Shown: one piece after another, positions 6,132 to 49,250 of the stretch
How positions within the stretch are numbered: the first letter of the stretch is position 1
Layout: every line of letters starts with the position of its first letter
Assembly (NCBI RefSeq): GCF_013315695.1
Contig: NZ_CP054353.1
Source: Escherichia coli
GTDB lineage: Bacteria > Pseudomonadota > Gammaproteobacteria > Enterobacterales > Enterobacteriaceae
Reading direction: 5' to 3' (one strand)
Length of the DNA stretch: 64,000 bases
Notes under the pieces: generated by a model
Databases searched by the model: none
What the model saw: only the letters and a program-made list of their open reading frames with translations
Told to the model about the DNA's origin: nothing
Made by a program: the position numbers and the translations under genes

Positions 6132-7526
6132 ATGCCATTTAAAAAACTCTCCCGACGCACCTTCCTGACGGCAAGCTCGGCGCTTGCCTTCCTCCATACC
6201 CCTTTCGCTCGCGCGCTTCCCGCCCGACAAATCGTTAACATTAACGACTACAACCCACACGACTGGATCGCCTCATTTAAACAAGCCTTCAGCGAAGGGC
6301 AAACGGTCGTCGTGCCTGCCGGATTCGTTTGTGAAAATATCAACACCGGCATCTTCATTCCTCCTGGCAAAACGTTGCACATCCTTGGAAGCCTGCGCGG
6401 CAACGGCAGAGGGCGTTTTGTCTTACAAGACGGCAGCCAGGTGACAGGGGAGAAGGGCGGCCGTATGCATAACATCACCCTGGATGTGCGCGGTTCTGAC
6501 TGCATCATCAAAGGGTTGGCGATGAGCGGTTTTGGCCCGGTAACGCAGATTTATATCGGCGGCAAAAATAAACGCGTCATGCGCAACTTGACCATCGATA
6601 ACCTGACCGTCAGCCACGCTAATTACGCCATTTTACGCCAGGGATTTCATAACCAGATTATCGGTGCCAACATCACCAATTGTAAGTTCAGCGACTTACA
6701 GGGCGACGCCATTGAATGGAATGTAGCAATCAATGATCGCGACATTTTGATATCCGACCATGTCATCGAGCGCATCAACTGTACTAACGGCAAAATCAAC
6801 TGGGGTATTGGCATAGGACTGGCAGGAAGTACTTACGATAATAATTATCCGGAAAACCAGGCAGTGAAAAACTTTGTCGTTGCGAATATCACGGGATCAG
6901 ATTGTCGGCAACTGATCCATGTTGAAAATGGTAAACATTTTGTTATCCGTAATATCAAAGCTCGTAATATCACGCCGGATTTCAGTAAGAAAGCAGGTAT
7001 TGATAACGCCACAGTTGCTATTTATGGTTGTGACAACTTTGTGATTGATAATATTGAAATGATTAATAGTGCCGGGATGTTAATCGGCTATGGGGTAATT
7101 AAAGGCAAATATCTCTCGATACCGCAGAATTTCCGAGTGAATGATATTCAACTGGATAATACTCATCTTGCTTATAAATTGCGCGGCATCCAAATCTCCG
7201 CCGGGAATGCTGTCTCCTTTGTGGCGCTGACTAACATTGAGATGAAGCGTGCGTCGCTGGAGTTACACAACAAACCGCAACATCTTTTTATGCGAAATAT
7301 CAATGTGATGCAGGAATCCTCAGTTGGACCCGCATTGAGCATGAACTTTGACATGCGCAAAGACGTTCGCGGCGTGTTTATGGCGAAAAAAGAAACACTG
7401 CTGTCTCTTGCAAATGTTCATGCGGTGAATGAAAAAGGACAAATCTCCGTCGATATCGACAGGATTAATCACCATATTGTTAATGTGGAGAAGATTAACT
7501 TTAGATTGCCAGAACGGAGGGAGTAG
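6132..7526 (+). CDS. wcaM: colanic acid biosynthesis protein WcaM (signal-peptide protein, beta-helix-like)
   Basis: 464-aa ORF with N-terminal signal-like sequence; last gene of the wca cluster before galF. Confidence 0.85.
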
Positions 7527-42920: not shown

Positions 42921-43250
42921 ATGGAAACTACCAAGCCTTCATTCCAGGACGTACTGGAATTTGTTCGTCTGTTCCGTCGTAAGAACAAACTGCAACGTGA
43001 AATTCAGGACGTTGAGAAAAAGATCCGTGACAACCAGAAGCGCGTCCTGTTGCTGGACAACCTGAGCGATTACATCAAGCCAGGGATGAGCGTTGAAGCA
43101 ATCCAGGGCATCATCGCCAGCATGAAAGGTGACTATGAAGATCGCGTTGACGATTACATCATCAAAAATGCCGAGCTCTCCAAAGAACGCCGCGATATCT
43201 CCAAAAAGCTGAAAGCTATGGGCGAAATGAAAAACGGCGAAGCGAAGTAA
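42921..43250 (+). CDS. yeeX: UPF0265/DUF496 protein YeeX
   Basis: ORF 42855..43250; internal Met gives [28 protein letters not shown] (109 aa). Confidence 0.9.
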
Positions 43251-43263
43251 TTCCCGTTTTATT

Positions 43264-43292
43264 CAATGAGGGTTGCCCGGCAACCCTCATTG
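43264..43292. terminator. 12-bp-stem hairpin after yeeX (no clear U-tract)
   Basis: caatgagggttg-cccgg-caaccctcattg perfect inverted repeat 14 bp after the yeeX stop. Confidence 0.4.
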
Positions 43293-43350
43293 CTCATTGA
43301 TTCTTATCTGTGTATCACCGTCATCATTCTCATCTGAGAACCAATCGAAA

Positions 43351-43575
43351 TTAACAACAGCCTTCTTCTGTATGCAGCAAGGCAAAAAGTTCTGTAACTC
43401 CATTGTTATTAACTGCACTGGTTACTAACACGTTGTGCGCTCCAGCTTCCCGTAACCAACTTTTCACCAAAGATATTTGTTCCATGCTGGCTAAATCTGC
43501 TTTGGTTACTACTCCAATGACCGGGTGATTCATGGCCCGGTAGGGCGTTTTTACCTCTAATTCCTGCTTCAGCGC
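43351..43575 (-). pseudogene. 3' remnant of a small EutP/PduV-family GTPase gene (G4 TKxD and G5 SA motifs only)
   Basis: Minus-strand ORF C-terminus ..NHPVIGVVTKADLASMEQISLVKSWLREAGAHNVLVTSAVNNNGVTELFALL; the upstream part of the ORF call is antisense to an IS66 fragment and not credible. Confidence 0.35.
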
Positions 43576-43589
43576 TGAGATTCCTGCTT

Positions 43590-43733
43590 GTTGCCGGAAA
43601 AGCAGGCACCTGCCGTCTGAACGGTATCGATCCGGAAGCGTATCTGCGCCATATTCTGAGCATACTGCCGGAATGGCCCTCCAACCGTGTTGACGAACTC
43701 CTGCCATGGAACGTAGTTCTCACCAATAAATAA
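43590..43733 (+). mobile_element. IS66-family transposase C-terminal fragment
   Basis: Translates to ..AGKAGTCRLNGIDPEAYLRHILSILPEWPSNRVDELLPWNVVLTNK*, the conserved C-terminal motif of IS66-family TnpC; no intact upstream ORF. Confidence 0.55.
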
Positions 43734-44147
43734 GCGTCAATACGGTGCTCCGTTGACGCTTACTTTAATCCGTTTTCTGAGCTTAGATTTTTCTGTTCCT
43801 ACCCAGACCGTGGATTTGGAATTCATTTTTTGTCAGGTCAATGCTAATCGTTAAAACGGCCATAACGCACCTCCACTGGAAGGTTTATCAGTAATATCCT
43901 ACCGTTGCTTCATGGTCGGGGCGTCCATTCCATTATTATCGGTTTTCCTTTCTGTTTATAAATGAAAACGCCAGCTGTATTCAGGCTGGCGTCAGGGGAA
44001 ATGAAGCCTGTTGAGTGAGATTCACCGGTTCTGGTGCAGAAGCTGCAGATGGCGCAGGGTAAGGACATCTTCTCTTGCCTGCTTAATACAGGACAACAGT
44101 GCTGTTTCTGTGGTTAATGGCACTATACCCTGTATCACTGCATTGTC

Positions 44148-44342
44148 TTACAGCAACTGGTGAGGGCTGGCATAAGTTGCCGGTGTTTCGGTAGAGTCAC
44201 GGCCATCCACCACGCGGAGTGAATAACCGTTTTCAGCGGCCTTATTAATCAGTTCAGTGATATTAACACCATCAATGTCAACGACAATGTGCCCCATATC
44301 CAGCGCCTGTACGTTAACGCTGTCGGCTTCCAGTGTCATCAT
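44148..44342 (-). CDS. yeeW: CP4-44-type prophage protein YeeW
   Basis: 64-aa ORF overlapping the cbtA stop; matches remembered YeeW. Confidence 0.7.
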   Translation of the reverse strand: MMTLEADSVNVQALDMGHIVVDIDGVNITELINKAAENGYSLRVVDGRDSTETPATYASPHQLL

Positions 44343-44713
44343 TTCGCCTCCGGATACTTACCCAGGGTAATGTTATTTACCGTTCTGTAATTGTCGCGGG
44401 TCATCAGGCCGGTCGCCCTGCGAGCCCGGAGGATATCGATGCTGTTTATTAACTGAGAGCGGGTACAGGCGCTGAATCCCGGCTGGTCGGTACGCACCAG
44501 CGCGTATTTTTCCACGAGAAAGTTCACCGCATCACACAGTGAAATGCCTGCCTCAATATGCTGCTCAATCACACGTTCATCGGCAAACGGTGTGTCATTC
44601 AGTGTGAGGCCGTAGTGCTGGTCCAGCAGTCGGGACAGCAGTATCTGCCAGATTTCAACAGGAGACGGGCGAGAACTGGCCGCCTGCCCGGGTAATACAG
44701 GTAATGTTTTCAT
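44339..44713 (-). CDS. cbtA: CbtA toxin (cytoskeleton-binding toxin, YeeV family)
   Basis: 124-aa ORF MKTLPVLPGQAASSRPSPVEIWQILLSRLLDQHYGLTLNDTPFADE.. matches remembered CbtA. Confidence 0.92.
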   Translation of the reverse strand: MKTLPVLPGQAASSRPSPVEIWQILLSRLLDQHYGLTLNDTPFADERVIEQHIEAGISLCDAVNFLVEKYALVRTDQPGFSACTRSQLINSIDILRARRATGLMTRDNYRTVNNITLGKYPEAK

Positions 44714-44801
44714 ACTGAAGATTTTCCTGATATGCAGATATAAAAATGGGAAAGTGGCGTGGTGAAAACACCAGGCCGTAGCAGAAGGCTATTCTGGAGA
44801 G

Positions 44802-45170
44802 TTAATTTTTCATTTCGGGCGTCGGATAAACAGCCAGATAAACGTAACCACAACTGCTGAGGGTATCGGCTTCACAGGCCAGCCCCTTCGCATACAGCGT
44901 GACGGTATGCTGAGTGCGGGGATTCAGTTCACCGCTGGTGAGCATGAGTTCCAGTTGTTTCATCAGCAGCGGAAAGGCCTGGTCCAGGGGGTACGCATCT
45001 GCATCGCTGGACAGGCCTCTGATACCGGCGCGGTCGGCAAGGTAATGCAACCGGTTACCCTCCTGCACCAGACGTGCCCCGAAACAGGGCGTCACGGTGC
45101 AGGGCAGCCCCCACTAGGGGCGGTCGTGATTGTCGTCGGGAAGTGTTGTCCCGGGGAGTGTGTCTGACAC
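44802..45170 (-). pseudogene. cbeA: CbeA (YeeU) antitoxin gene with premature amber codon at codon 19
   Basis: From GTG 45170: VSDTLPGTTLPDDNHDRP-TAG-WGLPCTVTPCFGARLVQEG..; TAG at 45114..45116 where I remember Trp in K-12; longest ORF 44802..45095 would need internal GTG reinitiation. Confidence 0.8.
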
Positions 45171-45243
45171 GATAAAATCCTTACAGAAAATCGGTTAAGA
45201 ATGGTCCGGTGGTGGCGATAATTCTGCTCATCAGAATTCCCAC

Positions 45244-45465
45244 TCAGTTCAGGGTGACGCTCATCAGTCGGACATACGGGCCAAAACTGTCCTTACGGCG
45301 TTCAGCAAACACGGCCAGCACACCGGGAATATCCTGCACTTCACGACCGGTATACGCTTCAGCACTGCCGTGCCAGCGGTATTTACCGGTACAGAACGGA
45401 AAAAGACGGGATGTCGGATGTTGTTGGTGAATACGCATGGCTTCACCACGGGTGATAATTTTCAT
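45244..45465 (-). CDS. yeeT: DUF987 protein YeeT
   Basis: 73-aa ORF MKIITRGEAMRIHQQHPTSRLFPFCTGKYRWHG.. Confidence 0.85.
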   Translation of the reverse strand: MKIITRGEAMRIHQQHPTSRLFPFCTGKYRWHGSAEAYTGREVQDIPGVLAVFAERRKDSFGPYVRLMSVTLN

Positions 45466-45527
45466 AATGGGATACCTCTGAAGACAGAAGATAAAAGTGA
45501 AAACAGGTGTGATGTGGTTGTGACGGG

Positions 45528-45974
45528 TTAAAGCAGACCATGTTCGGCAAAGGAGAAAACCTGGCTGCCACCGACTATCAGATGGTCCGGCACCCGGATA
45601 TCCACCAGGCCCAGTGCCTGTACCAGACGTTCCGTGATAAGGCGGTCTGCCTTGCTGGGTGTGACTTCACCGGACGGGTGATTGTGTGCCAGCACCACGG
45701 CAGCGGCATTGTGGTACAGGGCGCGTTTAATCACTTCCCGGGGATGGACTTCCGTGCGGTTGATGGTGCCGGTGAAGAGGGTTTCACCGGCAATCAGCTG
45801 ATTCTGGTTATTCAGATACAGCACCCGGAATTCTTCACGCTCCAGTCCCGCCATGTTCAGAATCAGCCATTCCCGTGCCGCACGGGTGGAGGTGAAGGCC
45901 ACGCCGGGTTCATGAAGATGGCGGTCCAGGGTTTTCAGGGCCCGCTGAATGAGGCTGCGCTCGCCGGGCGTCAT
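45528..45974 (-). CDS. yeeS: RadC-like JAB-domain protein YeeS (start uncertain; alternative starts at 46004 and 46019)
   Basis: ORF 45528..46019 with HNHPSG JAMM-like motif. Confidence 0.8.
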   Translation of the reverse strand: MTPGERSLIQRALKTLDRHLHEPGVAFTSTRAAREWLILNMAGLEREEFRVLYLNNQNQLIAGETLFTGTINRTEVHPREVIKRALYHNAAAVVLAHNHPSGEVTPSKADRLITERLVQALGLVDIRVPDHLIVGGSQVFSFAEHGLL

Positions 45975-46019
45975 CTCTCCGGGCAGAAAGGAAAGCTGCT
46001 GCATTGTCCCTGCCTCCAT

Positions 46020-46484
46020 TCAGTCGATGATGCGCATAATGGCGCTGCATTCCGGATGCTGCAGGGCATAATCCCGCAGCCGGTAATAATGAACCGTCAT
46101 GGCATAATTCTCTGTACGACAGGCGTGATGGCTGTACGCCATCAGACAGGCGGCAATGCCGGCGGCTTCCGGGCTCATTTCAGCGCGGTTACCGTTCATG
46201 ACGTTAAACAGCACCCATGTTTCGTCATCATCGTCATCCGGTTCGGGTGCCATAAATGCGCCACCGTTGTTCAGGGTGTACAGATTCCAGATACCACCGC
46301 AGTAGTCTTCATACAGACGGTCCATCCAGCCGAAGACCCGGGGCTCCAGGGTCACCCACTGTGGAATGAGGCCAAAATGCTGCGGCCAGAAGCTGATGCG
46401 CTGTTCATCAGGGACTATGGTGGCAACCAGTTGTTGCAGGCCAGTCTCCGGTGCACAGGCCGAAGAGGTGGTGTTCTGAGACAA
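46020..46484 (-). CDS. antirestriction protein (KlcA/ArdB-like); 5' end abuts the IS element, N-terminus possibly altered
   Basis: 154-aa ORF with TTG start only 5 nt from the IS right end; acidic DDDDDE stretch; position equivalent to yfjX/yafX-type genes in CP4-family prophages. Confidence 0.65.
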   Translation of the reverse strand: MSQNTTSSACAPETGLQQLVATIVPDEQRISFWPQHFGLIPQWVTLEPRVFGWMDRLYEDYCGGIWNLYTLNNGGAFMAPEPDDDDDETWVLFNVMNGNRAEMSPEAAGIAACLMAYSHHACRTENYAMTVHYYRLRDYALQHPECSAIMRIID

Positions 46485-46496
46485 TGTTTGTAGTGG

Positions 46497-47747
<1,251 letters not shown>

Positions 47748-47785
47748 GTTTCCTCTGACTCGTGTCAGTCGGTCTCTGGTTGTAT

Positions 47786-47824
47786 CCACGGACCGCACTC
47801 TTGACATAAGAGTGCGGTCCGTGG
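47786..47824. repeat. perfect 17-bp inverted repeat with 5-nt loop
   Basis: ccacggaccgcactctt-gacat-aagagtgcggtccgtgg, 40 bp outside the IS3 end; no adjacent U-tract. Confidence 0.6.
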
Positions 47825-49250
47825 AAAACGGAGTTGAAAAAATGGTGTCTGAAAGAAGGTACCATCATTGCGATGACAAACACTTTGGCGTGGATAATGT
47901 AATTAATTGCTGAAATTGACCGTATATGCGGTAAGACTCATATCAGTATCAGGTCCGGTTAATTGCTGATACTGACATAAACTTTTTACAAAAGGATGAA
48001 TGCAGAAGGTTACTCTAATGGCCAGAGTGATGACAATGATGGTCAGACGTTGACCTGCAGAAACTGCATTTTAATTGGTCTATAAAGTCTGCAAGAGGAA
48101 TCAGGGTCAGATCAGTGAGTCTTATCGCGGCCCGAAGCTATGACTGAAAGAAGGCTGGATACAGAATTGCAACAATTTGGCAATGTCAGAACACAGAAGC
48201 TTTGCAAGCAGGTGAAAGGTTATGTCTAGAAAAAGGAGTATATCAGAATACATCTACTGATGTACAAAACACAACAATAGCTTCATGATATATAAATACG
48301 TGATGACGAGTGGTACTCCGCATGGTTATTTAACTTCTCAGCACCACTAATGATCCTGAGCAACTTCGTATTTGGGCCATTGCCATGGAGTAGAAAGCTG
48401 TGTCTGAGAATGCAGAATTTGAGAAAAGAATTCGCTTTCTTGGAGAGCTTCTGAAAATGGCACGCTAACAACGCTTTGTTAAAAAATGTGAATCACTTGC
48501 CGAGGCTGCATTTTCTATTCGAGGAGAATGTTGACGTAGATATTACAGAAATCTCAGCGCATCAGGATAAACTGCTACCTTAGGTCAACCACCAAAAGAA
48601 AATACAATACGTCCAGTTTGTATGCCTTTAATAACACATCTTTTAAATGTTGAAGAATTATCCCGCCTGCTGAAGAACGTTGCTCTGAGTGTGATAAACC
48701 TTTTTATTCTTGATGATGTCAGCGAGAAGATGGAATATATCCCCGACTGGGTCGTGGTTACCCGGTTAAACATCTGGTGGCGCTAATAAATCTGGCAAGT
48801 CACATTCTGTTGAATGCTGTGACAGTGCCTTACCGAGAGAGCGAAATTGTGGTGTTCTAGTGCATAGTCGCCACCATTCCGGATAATTTTATTGCGTTGT
48901 TTTACAACTTCTTTTACAGCGCAGATCTGTCGCTGACGTTGAATCAATAGCCTGGATTTCAGAACACAATGCCCGTTTGCTGGTTGGTCCGGCAGTAGCA
49001 TTAATTCATTATCTGAATGAAATGTGTCAATCCACAGAAACCGCTGTCAATGACGCATTTTGTCGGACGTTAACACGAGAAAGTCTGGCTATTCCGTAAT
49101 GCCATCTTATTTCGTAATGGATTGAGAATGCTGGATTTTTAATTATATTACGCGCAGTATTAATCGCGTAAATGTTTTGCGGTCAGCAACGGTGGGGGAT
49201 CCATTGCTCTGTTCAATGAATACCATCATACATTTGAATCAGGAGTCGGT

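What the first reader, a model, noticed from the sequence alone, without database searches (positions are those of the whole stretch)
43351..43733. Small-GTPase gene remnant next to yeeX, possibly a relic of the lost pdu operon, cut by an IS66 fragment
The minus-strand sequence ..NHPVIGVVTKADLASMEQISLVKSWLREAGAHNVLVTSAVNNNG.. has the G4 (TKxD) and G5 (SA) motifs and the short C-tail of EutP/PduV-type GTPases, but no N-terminal half. Directly upstream lies the C-terminal motif of an IS66-family transposase (..LNGIDPEAYL..LPEWPSNRVDELLPWN). In Salmonella the pdu operon, with pduV near its end, lies between cobU and the yeeX side of this region, which is where E. coli carries CP4-44. The fragment could be a scar of the ancestral pdu/cbi locus.
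Basis: inference. Interest (0 to 1): 0.45.

Follow-up and report, generated by a model that had tools for sequence, protein, structure and literature searches.

The report
Dead pduV gene tail (yoeF)
This is the dead last third of E. coli's own propanediol-microcompartment GTPase gene pduV, already catalogued as yoeF, left beside yeeX/tmaR when a CP4-44-type genomic island replaced the pdu operon, so it is a real but ordinary and already annotated scar.

Summary
Window 43351-43533 (minus strand) encodes the last 60 codons of a PduV GTPase. It has the G4 and G5 motifs but lacks the P-loop and G3. It is 97% identical in DNA to the intact 147-codon pduV of E. coli strains that still carry the pdu operon. 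In those strains pduV sits at the same spot, 100 bp from yeeX/tmaR and convergent with it. The fragment is 58% identical to Salmonella PduV and gives no BLAST alignment to E. coli EutP.

The reading as a relic of a lost pdu locus is supported. About 17.5 kb (the rest of pduV through pduA, then pduF, pocR and the B12 riboswitch) is replaced here by a CP4-44-type island. The other junction lies just upstream of cobU.

One detail is wrong: the IS66 fragment does not cut pduV. Codon 88 of pduV is fused in frame to codons ~40-63 of the island's terminal DUF4942 gene (43534-43604). The IS66 right end (43605-43763, plus strand) lies inside a truncated IS110-family element (43764-43934).

All of this is already annotated in MG1655 as yoeF (b4538) and yoeD (b4642). 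RefSeq names the fragment as a EutP/PduV family protein. It is most likely a non-functional pseudogene, so novelty and interest are low.

The parts
42921..43250 (+). yeeX/tmaR (DUF496), the conserved chromosomal neighbour, convergent with the remnant
   Evidence: ORF list. Annotated tmaR at the matching position in strains 203740, A20 and MG1655.
43264..43292 (.). 29-bp palindrome (13-bp stem) between the convergent yeeX and pduV 3' ends. It is probably the shared transcript-end hairpin and is kept intact.
   Evidence: Self-match in BLAST. RNA fold -21 kcal/mol, z = -5.2. It is also present in pdu-positive strain A20. No canonical U-run was found by the terminator scan.
43351..43533 (-). pduV remnant: codons 88-147 plus the stop codon of the 147-codon Escherichia-type pduV. 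G4 (TKAD) and G5 (TSA) are present. G1 (P-loop) and G3 are missing.
   Evidence: Continuous 99% DNA alignment from yeeA through yeeX to window 43533 against A20 (L001), stopping exactly at 43533. 57 of 59 aa identical to A20 PduV residues 88-146. PF10662 E 5.2e-13. TBLASTN with Salmonella PduV gives 58%, E 4.6e-20.
43534..43604 (-). 5' fragment (codons about 40-63) of the DUF4942 gene that ends CP4-type islands, fused in frame to pduV codon 88. Its first base is the annotated right boundary of CP4-44 in MG1655.
   Evidence: Single-copy in 4180 of 5426 E. coli genomes. In strain 00_3305 the piece extends to a full DUF4942 N-terminus of 61 aa, 60% identical, E 1e-18, to a 280-aa DUF4942 protein. 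The CP4-44 feature ends at MG1655 2078748, which maps to window 43534.
43605..43763 (+). Right end of an IS66-family element: the last 42 codons and stop of the transposase TnpC, then a 30-bp terminus ending in the GTAAGCG-type inverted repeat. This is yoeD in MG1655.
   Evidence: Megablast matches to intact IS66/ISEc23 copies on plasmids all begin at 43605. They end at 43763 in three of the five (H20, H22, H23), at 43765 in H21 and at 43760 in H24. PF13817 E 5.3e-16. Translation. yoeD pseudogene.
43764..43934 (-). Left end of an IS110-family element: 71 bp of upstream end plus the first 100 bp of its transposase pseudogene (ATG at 43863). It is truncated by the IS66 insertion and deletion.
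   Evidence: Strains 00_3305 and 09A19CPO004B carry a 1.37-kb insertion just upstream of the DUF4942 start, relative to an island without it. The PGAP IS110 pseudogene start maps to window 43863. The N-terminal peptide MAVLTISIDLTKNEFQIHG is read from the sequence.
43351..43707 (-). The 118-codon ORF annotated as yoeF. It is a three-part chimera: 35 codons antisense to the IS66 fragment, 23 DUF4942 codons and 60 pduV codons.
   Evidence: ORF list. MG1655 yoeF b4538. The exact sequence is UniProt YOEF_ECOUT.
48955..49114 (+). The other scar: the 3' part of a hypothetical ORF upstream of cobU, where homology to the pdu-positive strain resumes. The island therefore spans 43534-48954.
   Evidence: Megablast of window against A20 L006 resumes at 48955 = L006 6306. 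Junction sequences. TBLASTN of the A20 hypothetical protein gives residues 86-145 at 48944-49114, i.e. starting 11 bases on the island side of the 48955 DNA junction.

Best explanation
The feature is an inactive 3' remnant of the chromosomal pduV gene, the last gene of the Escherichia-type propanediol-utilisation (pdu) microcompartment operon. It is known in K-12 as yoeF. In the ancestor of this lineage the pdu operon ran from pduA to pduV and ended 100 bp from yeeX/tmaR, convergent with it. A CP4-44-type genomic island now takes its place. A deletion joined codon ~63 of the island's last gene (DUF4942) in frame to codon 88 of pduV. Together with a second junction just upstream of cobU, this accounts for the loss of about 17.5 kb: the first 87 codons of pduV, pduU through pduA, pduF, pocR and the B12 riboswitch. 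Later an IS110-family element inserted just upstream of the DUF4942 start. An IS66-family element then inserted into the IS110. A further deletion removed most of both IS elements and DUF4942 codons 1-39. What remains encodes no P-loop and no G3 motif. It also lacks the N-terminal region that, from my own recollection of Parsons et al. 2010 (not checked here), targets PduV to the microcompartment. No pdu genes remain in the window. It therefore cannot act as a GTPase and is most likely a neutral pseudogene. Shown directly: the homologies, the breakpoints, the synteny and the population frequencies. Inferred: the order of events and the lack of function.
For: Identity and position. DNA is collinear with pdu-positive E. 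coli A20 from yeeA to window 43533 at 99% and then stops. In A20 the intact pduV sits 100 bp after tmaR on the opposite strand, followed by pduU-pduA, pduF, pocR, the riboswitch, a hypothetical ORF and cobUST. E. albertii has the same pduV-yeeX adjacency, and Salmonella has pduV-pduW-pduX-yeeX.

Family. PF10662 E 5.2e-13. Identity is 95% to E. coli PduV, 80% to E. albertii, 58% to Salmonella and 18% to EutP. BLASTP finds no EutP alignment, and TBLASTN finds no EutP, PduW or PduX hit in the window.

Fusion partner. DUF4942 N-terminus, 60% identity, E 1e-18, and 77% DNA identity to DUF4942 genes of other CP4-type islands.

IS layers..

Second junction near cobU..

Population. The DUF4942-pduV junction piece occurs once per genome in 4180 of 5426 complete E. 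coli genomes. The exact window arrangement occurs in 3179. Intact pduU-pduV occurs in 644-749.

Existing annotation. yoeF, yoeD and a CP4-44 boundary that falls exactly at my breakpoint. RefSeq names the product a EutP/PduV family protein, and the 118-aa ORF is UniProt YoeF.
Against: No direct expression or function data were examined, so 'non-functional' is inferred from the missing motifs and missing partners. One transposon-sequencing study lists yoeD and yoeF among genes depleted under gentamicin in one of its MG1655 libraries (PMC10879529). That could hint at some role of the locus, but small genes with few insertion sites and polar effects on neighbours are likely explanations. Substitutions among remnant alleles are too few to show relaxed selection (nonsynonymous/synonymous changed codons 3/2 against intact A20 pduV, 2/2 and 6/1 against other remnant alleles). 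No repeats or microhomology were seen at the two island junctions, so the mechanism of the replacement is not established.
Confidence: 0.95

Rival explanations
1. An IS66 insertion directly truncated pduV. The IS would have landed in pduV, and the upstream part would have been lost by an IS-mediated deletion.
For: An IS66 right-end fragment lies only 71 bp from the pduV breakpoint.
Against: The 71 bp between them is part of a DUF4942 gene, not IS66. About 840 genomes share the same pduV breakpoint and the DUF4942 fusion but carry a whole IS110 element and no IS66 fragment there. The pduV truncation is therefore independent of IS66 and most likely predates it.
Confidence: 0.02
2. The fragment is a remnant of a eutP paralogue or of an island- or prophage-borne small GTPase brought in by CP4-44, not of the resident pdu operon.
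For: Several databases label the product 'ethanolamine utilization protein EutP'. MG1655 annotation places part of yoeF inside the CP4-44 feature.
Against: There is no BLASTP alignment to E. coli EutP, and the multiple alignment gives 18% identity. The match to the resident pduV of pdu-positive E. coli is 97% in DNA, continuous with the chromosomal flank and not with the island. The CP4-44 annotated boundary excludes the 183 pduV bases.
Confidence: 0.01
3. The chimeric ORF yoeF (or the 60-codon version) is a live small gene, or the locus has a cis-acting role, for example in ending or modulating tmaR transcription, and is kept by selection.
For: The arrangement is retained at 98-100% identity in 3179 genomes. 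The hairpin between yeeX and the remnant is intact. yoeD and yoeF were depleted in one TraDIS library under gentamicin. EcoCyc and RefSeq now list yoeF as a CDS rather than a pseudogene.
Against: The nucleotide-binding motifs are absent. No promoter-like site above chance lies upstream. By my reading of the sequence, neither candidate ATG has an obvious ribosome-binding site. Other lineages have deleted into or past the remnant (H18 and H19). High identity is expected anyway within one species.
Confidence: 0.03

Closest known systems
yoeF (b4538) and yoeD (b4642) of E. coli K-12 MG1655, at the right end of cryptic prophage CP4-44
   Same: Same locus and the same nested structure. The 183 pduV bases are 100% identical to MG1655. 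The 118-aa ORF is identical to UniProt YOEF_ECOUT. yoeD is the IS66 transposase fragment.
   Different: The 71-bp DUF4942 piece differs from K-12 by one base. The island in this window is much shorter (43534-48954, about 5.4 kb) than the 12.7-kb CP4-44 of K-12, and most of the K-12 island between yeeS and yoeH, which includes flu and yeeR, has no match in the window.
PduV of the Salmonella/Citrobacter pdu operon (EutP/PduV family, Pfam PF10662, a microcompartment-associated small GTPase)
   Same: Homologous over residues 88-147 (58-60% identity, E 4.6e-20). It has the same G4 and G5 motifs and the same chromosomal neighbourhood and orientation relative to yeeX.
   Different: Only the C-terminal 41% of the protein remains. 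G1 and G3 and the N-terminal region are gone. In Salmonella pduW and pduX lie between pduV and yeeX, whereas in Escherichia pduV is the last gene.
Intact pduV of pdu-positive E. coli (e.g. strain A20, AIEC LF82) and E. albertii
   Same: The direct orthologue, 97% DNA identity, at the identical position 100 bp from tmaR.
   Different: The intact gene has 147 codons and sits in a complete pduA-V operon. Here codons 1-87 and the rest of the operon are missing.
EutP of the E. coli eut operon
   Same: Same Pfam/TIGRFAM superfamily (PF10662, TIGR02528).
   Different: No detectable pairwise alignment to the remnant, and 18% identity in the multiple alignment. It lies at a different locus.
DUF4942 terminal gene of CP4-type integrative islands (order RadC - DUF987 - YeeU/CbeA - CbtA - DUF5983 - DUF957 - DUF4942)
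   Same: The 71 bp, and the 203 bp kept in IS110-type strains, match the 5' end of such genes. The gene order upstream is the same.
   Different: Only codons ~40-63 remain here. The Pfam DUF4942 domain itself (residues 87-276) is absent.

Membership tests
EutP/PduV family (Pfam PF10662 / TIGR02528) | Significant match to the family profile | tested here: met
   PF10662 E 5.2e-13, 49.5 bits against a cut-off of 21, profile positions 88-142 of 143 only. TIGR02528 gives 43 bits, below its full-length cut-off of 138, as expected for a fragment. Intact A20 PduV scores 188.5.
EutP/PduV family (Pfam PF10662 / TIGR02528) | G1 P-loop (GxxxxGKT) and G3 (DTPGE) nucleotide-binding motifs | tested here: not met
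   The alignment starts at PduV residue 88. GPSQCGKT (residues 8-15) and DTPGE (42-46) of the intact orthologue have no counterpart. The feature is therefore a gene fragment, not a member able to function.
EutP/PduV family (Pfam PF10662 / TIGR02528) | G4 ((N/T)KxD) and G5 (SA) motifs | tested here: met
   TKAD and TSA are present. K11 and D13 of the remnant are invariant in the alignment with eight PduV/EutP proteins.
PduV orthologue group (as opposed to EutP) | Closer to PduV than to EutP, and located at the 3' end of a pdu operon | tested here: met
   95%, 80% and 58% identity to E. coli, E. albertii and Salmonella PduV against 18% to EutP, with no BLASTP alignment to EutP. The orthologous position is the end of the pdu operon in A20, E. 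albertii and Salmonella. In the window itself the operon is absent.
IS66 family insertion sequence | TnpC C-terminal domain and a terminal inverted repeat beginning GTAAGCG | tested here: met
   PF13817 E 5.3e-16. Matches to intact plasmid copies end at 43760-43765, three of the five at 43763, where the sequence reads GTAAGCG on the outward strand.
IS66 family insertion sequence | Complete element (tnpA, tnpB, DDE core of tnpC, both ends) | tested here: not met
   Only 159 bp remain (43605-43763), and every match to intact copies starts at 43605. It is a dead fragment.
DUF4942 protein of CP4-type islands | Sequence match to a DUF4942 protein and position after DUF957 at the island end | tested here: met
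   Through the longer allele in strain 00_3305: 60% identity, E 1e-18, over the N-terminal 61 aa, and 77% DNA identity. The Pfam domain region itself is deleted, so Pfam gives no match.
IS110 family insertion sequence | IS110-type transposase gene and element boundaries defined by comparison with an empty site | tested here: inconclusive
   Window 43764-43934 equals the first 171 bp of a 1.37-kb insertion that PGAP annotates as a frameshifted IS110 family transposase. The 26-aa N-terminal peptide is too short for a Pfam match. The exact ends were inferred from one empty-site comparison only.

The most novel reading that the evidence does not exclude
The three-part chimeric ORF yoeF (IS66-antisense + DUF4942 + PduV C-terminus), or the yoeD-yoeF DNA itself, has acquired a role. 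It might act as a small protein or as a transcript that affects tmaR or the neighbouring cbtA/cbeA module. That would explain its depletion in one gentamicin TraDIS library.
Probability: 0.03. Interest if true: 0.4.

Novelty: already known. Interest (0 to 1): 0.12.

Why it matters
The fragment has no likely function. Its value is as a dated scar. It shows that the pdu operon was resident at the yeeX-cobU locus in the E. coli lineage and was lost in most strains: about 77% share this one breakpoint, about 12-14% keep the pdu operon, and about 2% carry an independent clean deletion. This bears on claims that pdu-positive E. coli such as AIEC LF82 or dog-associated ST372 'acquired' the operon (PMC9997745). 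It also bears on the older loss-and-reacquisition model for cob/pdu in enteric bacteria (Lawrence and Roth 1996, recalled from memory; the paper could not be read here). The shared breakpoint is a convenient marker for typing the locus. None of this changes current understanding of microcompartments or of E. coli K-12.

Tried and rejected
1. EutP origin: rejected.

2. Relics of pduW, pduX or other pdu genes elsewhere in the window: TBLASTN with 19 proteins (Salmonella and A20 Pdu proteins, PocR, the A20 hypothetical protein and K-12 EutP) found only the pduV tail and, at the other junction, the tail of a hypothetical ORF upstream of cobU.

3. The 71 bp as rearranged pdu DNA or as part of IS66: there was no match to the A20, Salmonella or E. 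albertii pdu loci, and intact IS66 copies do not cover it. It was identified instead as DUF4942.

4. An IS66 inside the IS110 of strain 8GC as the ancestor of the window arrangement: rejected. That IS66 piece lies at another position and does not match the window's fragment.

5. att-like repeats or microhomology at the two island junctions: none found.

6. RNA families or a tRNA fragment at the island end: no Rfam match in 43200-44400.

7. Promoter or terminator evidence for expression: nothing above chance.

8. A test of selection from codon changes: too few differences to be informative.

9. Reading Lawrence and Roth 1996 (PMC1206939): the paper is not held.

10. Pfam on the A20 hypothetical ORF between the riboswitch and cobU: no family.

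Full report
**What the window is.** The stretch is an E. coli chromosome, read in the opposite orientation to MG1655. The gene order is sbmC, yeeA, yeeX/tmaR (42921-43250, plus strand), a short CP4-44-type island, and then cobUST, ldtA and the tRNA-Asn genes. In MG1655 the finding's coordinates correspond to yoeF (b4538, 'putative uncharacterized protein', 357 bp) and yoeD (b4642, pseudogene), at the right end of the feature 'cryptic prophage CP4-44'. RefSeq annotation of a strain identical to the window over 43251-43900 calls the two features 'EutP/PduV family microcompartment system protein' (60 aa) and 'transposase domain-containing protein, incomplete'. The 118-aa ORF is identical to UniProt YOEF_ECOUT and is recorded on at least 1000 contigs.

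**Check of the observation.** Both quoted peptides are present.
- The last 60 residues of the minus-strand ORF match Pfam PF10662 (PduV-EutP) at profile positions 88-142 of 143, with E 5.2e-13, above the curated cut-off.
- The plus-strand peptide matches PF13817 (IS66 C-terminal element) with E 5.3e-16.
- The TKAD (G4) and TSA (G5) motifs are there. K and D of G4 are invariant in an alignment with eight PduV/EutP proteins.
- The P-loop GPSQCGKT and the DTPGE motif of the intact protein have no counterpart.

**PduV, not EutP, and the resident gene.** E. coli strain A20 has a complete pduA-pduV operon. Its 147-codon pduV ends 100 bp from tmaR on the opposite strand. The window aligns to A20 without interruption from yeeA through tmaR, across a 29-bp palindrome and into pduV at 99% identity. 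The alignment stops exactly at window 43533. At protein level the remnant equals A20 PduV residues 88-146, with 57 of 59 identical.

Identity of the remnant to related proteins:

| Protein | Identity |
|---|---|
| E. coli A20 PduV | 95% |
| E. albertii PduV | 80% |
| Citrobacter PduV | 60% |
| Salmonella PduV | 58% |
| A second, island-borne E. coli PduV type | 54% |
| E. coli EutP | 18% |

BLASTP finds no alignment to EutP at all. EutP, PduW and PduX give nothing.

**Synteny.** In Salmonella the order is pduT-pduU-pduV-pduW-pduX, then yeeX (DUF496, convergent), yeeA, sbmC, dacD and phsCBA. In E. albertii and in pdu-positive E. coli, pduV is the last gene and directly faces yeeX. The orientation in the window (yeeX plus, remnant minus) is the same. 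On the far side, A20 continues pduA, pduF, pocR, a cobalamin riboswitch, a 145-aa hypothetical ORF and cobUST. Homology between the window and A20 resumes at 48955, inside that hypothetical ORF and about 300 bp before cobU. Relative to A20, about 17.5 kb is therefore replaced by the island at 43534-48954. The reading 'scar of the lost pdu locus' is supported.

**What actually cuts pduV.** The IS66 match begins at 43605, not at 43534. Every alignment to intact IS66-family copies starts at 43605. They end at 43763 in three of five cases and within 3 bp of it in the other two, where the outward strand reads GTAAGCG. The intervening 71 bp occurs once per genome in 4180 of 5426 complete E. coli genomes.

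In about 840 genomes, such as strain 00_3305, the same pduV breakpoint is present without the IS66 piece. There the ORF is 121 codons long. Its first 61 residues are the N-terminus of a DUF4942 protein: 60% identity, E 1e-18, to a 280-aa DUF4942 protein. The DNA is 74-78% identical to most of the DUF4942 genes that close other CP4-type islands after DUF957.

Codon 88 of pduV is therefore fused in frame to about codon 63 of the island's last gene. The window keeps DUF4942 codons ~40-63 (43534-43604). The MG1655 annotators placed the CP4-44 boundary (2078748) at exactly this base.

**The IS layers.** Compared with an island that has an uninterrupted DUF957-DUF4942 junction, strain 00_3305 carries a 1.37-kb insertion immediately upstream of the DUF4942 start. 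PGAP annotates it as a frameshifted IS110-family transposase. Window 43764-43934 equals the first 171 bp of that element, and the pseudogene's ATG maps to 43863. The IS66 right end (43605-43763, plus strand) abuts it.

The simplest history, which is inferred, is as follows:
1. The DUF4942::pduV fusion arose.
2. The IS110 element inserted.
3. An IS66 element inserted into the IS110.
4. One deletion removed most of the IS66, the rest of the IS110 and DUF4942 codons 1-39.

The ORF called yoeF is thus a three-part chimera: 35 codons antisense to IS66, 23 from DUF4942 and 60 from pduV.

**Function.** The remnant lacks G1 and G3. It also lacks the N-terminal region that targets PduV to the microcompartment, which I recall from Parsons et al. 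2010 and did not check here. No pdu gene remains in the window. No promoter-like site above chance lies upstream, and I see no obvious ribosome-binding site at either ATG. Other strains have deleted further into the remnant (H18 and H19). I conclude that it is a neutral pseudogene. The only contrary hint is one transposon-sequencing table that lists yoeD and yoeF as depleted under gentamicin. Codon-change counts are too small to test selection.

**Population picture.**

| Locus state | Complete genomes (of 5426) |
|---|---|
| Exact window arrangement | 3179 |
| DUF4942-pduV junction piece | 4180 |
| Intact pduU-pduV (including AIEC LF82) | 644-749 |
| Independent clean deletion, longer 98-codon pduV remnant | about 100 |

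In the clean-deletion strains the pduV remnant is joined directly, through 5 bp of microhomology, to the ORF upstream of cobU, with no island.

**Verdict.** The feature is already annotated (yoeF and yoeD; EutP/PduV family), and the y-ome survey still lists yoeF as uncharacterised. It is an ordinary gene remnant of low interest.

Noticed in passing
L010 (E. coli PK8568, NZ_CP080126.1) 6818-7452: A second, independent loss of the pdu operon. A 98-codon pduV remnant is joined directly, through 5 bp of microhomology, to the hypothetical ORF upstream of cobU, with no island. This is a clean deletion of about 17.2 kb, seen in roughly 100 of 5426 genomes.
   Followed up: partly
window 43534-44114; L003 6355-7836; L004 3686-4602; L013 5203-8891: The short stretch between the pduV remnant and the DUF957 gene is a hotspot for insertion sequences. 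Different strains carry IS110, IS66 pieces of two kinds, IS100 and IS1 there (H14).
   Followed up: partly
L006 6040-6477 (A20) and window 48944-49114: In pdu-positive E. coli A20 a 145-aa ORF with no Pfam match sits between the cobalamin riboswitch and cobU, where Salmonella has the cbi genes. Its last ~60 codons survive in the window next to the island junction. I did not test whether it is a cbi relic.
   Followed up: no
L011 and L012 6001-8555: E. coli has a second, divergent pduV type (146 aa, 72% identical to the resident type). It is followed by a pduW-like acetate-kinase-family gene and an IS66 TnpB gene, which suggests a separately acquired, mobile pdu cluster away from yeeX.
   Followed up: partly
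window 43534-48954 compared with L005 8021-20749: The island in this window is about 5.4 kb against 12.7 kb for CP4-44 in MG1655. Most of the K-12 island between yeeS and yoeH, which includes flu (Ag43) and yeeR, has no match in the window. IS5H is absent. The window instead carries an antirestriction-protein ORF (46020-46484) and an IS3-family transposase ORF (46497-47243).
   Followed up: partly
window 43264-43292: A perfect 13-bp-stem hairpin (-21 kcal/mol, z -5.2) lies between the convergent yeeX/tmaR and the pduV remnant. It is conserved in pdu-positive strains. It has no canonical U-run on either strand, so a role as a bidirectional terminator is only a guess.
   Followed up: partly
MG1655 yoeD/yoeF (equivalent to window 43351-43733): A TraDIS study (PMC10879529, Table 2) ranks yoeD and yoeF among the most depleted genes under gentamicin in one MG1655 library. 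This may be noise from tiny genes or a polar effect, but it is unexplained.
   Followed up: no
window 44339-44713: cbtA (the toxin of the CbtA/CbeA pair) is an intact 124-codon ORF in the window. It is annotated as frameshifted in strain 203740, which is otherwise identical over 43251-43900.
   Followed up: no
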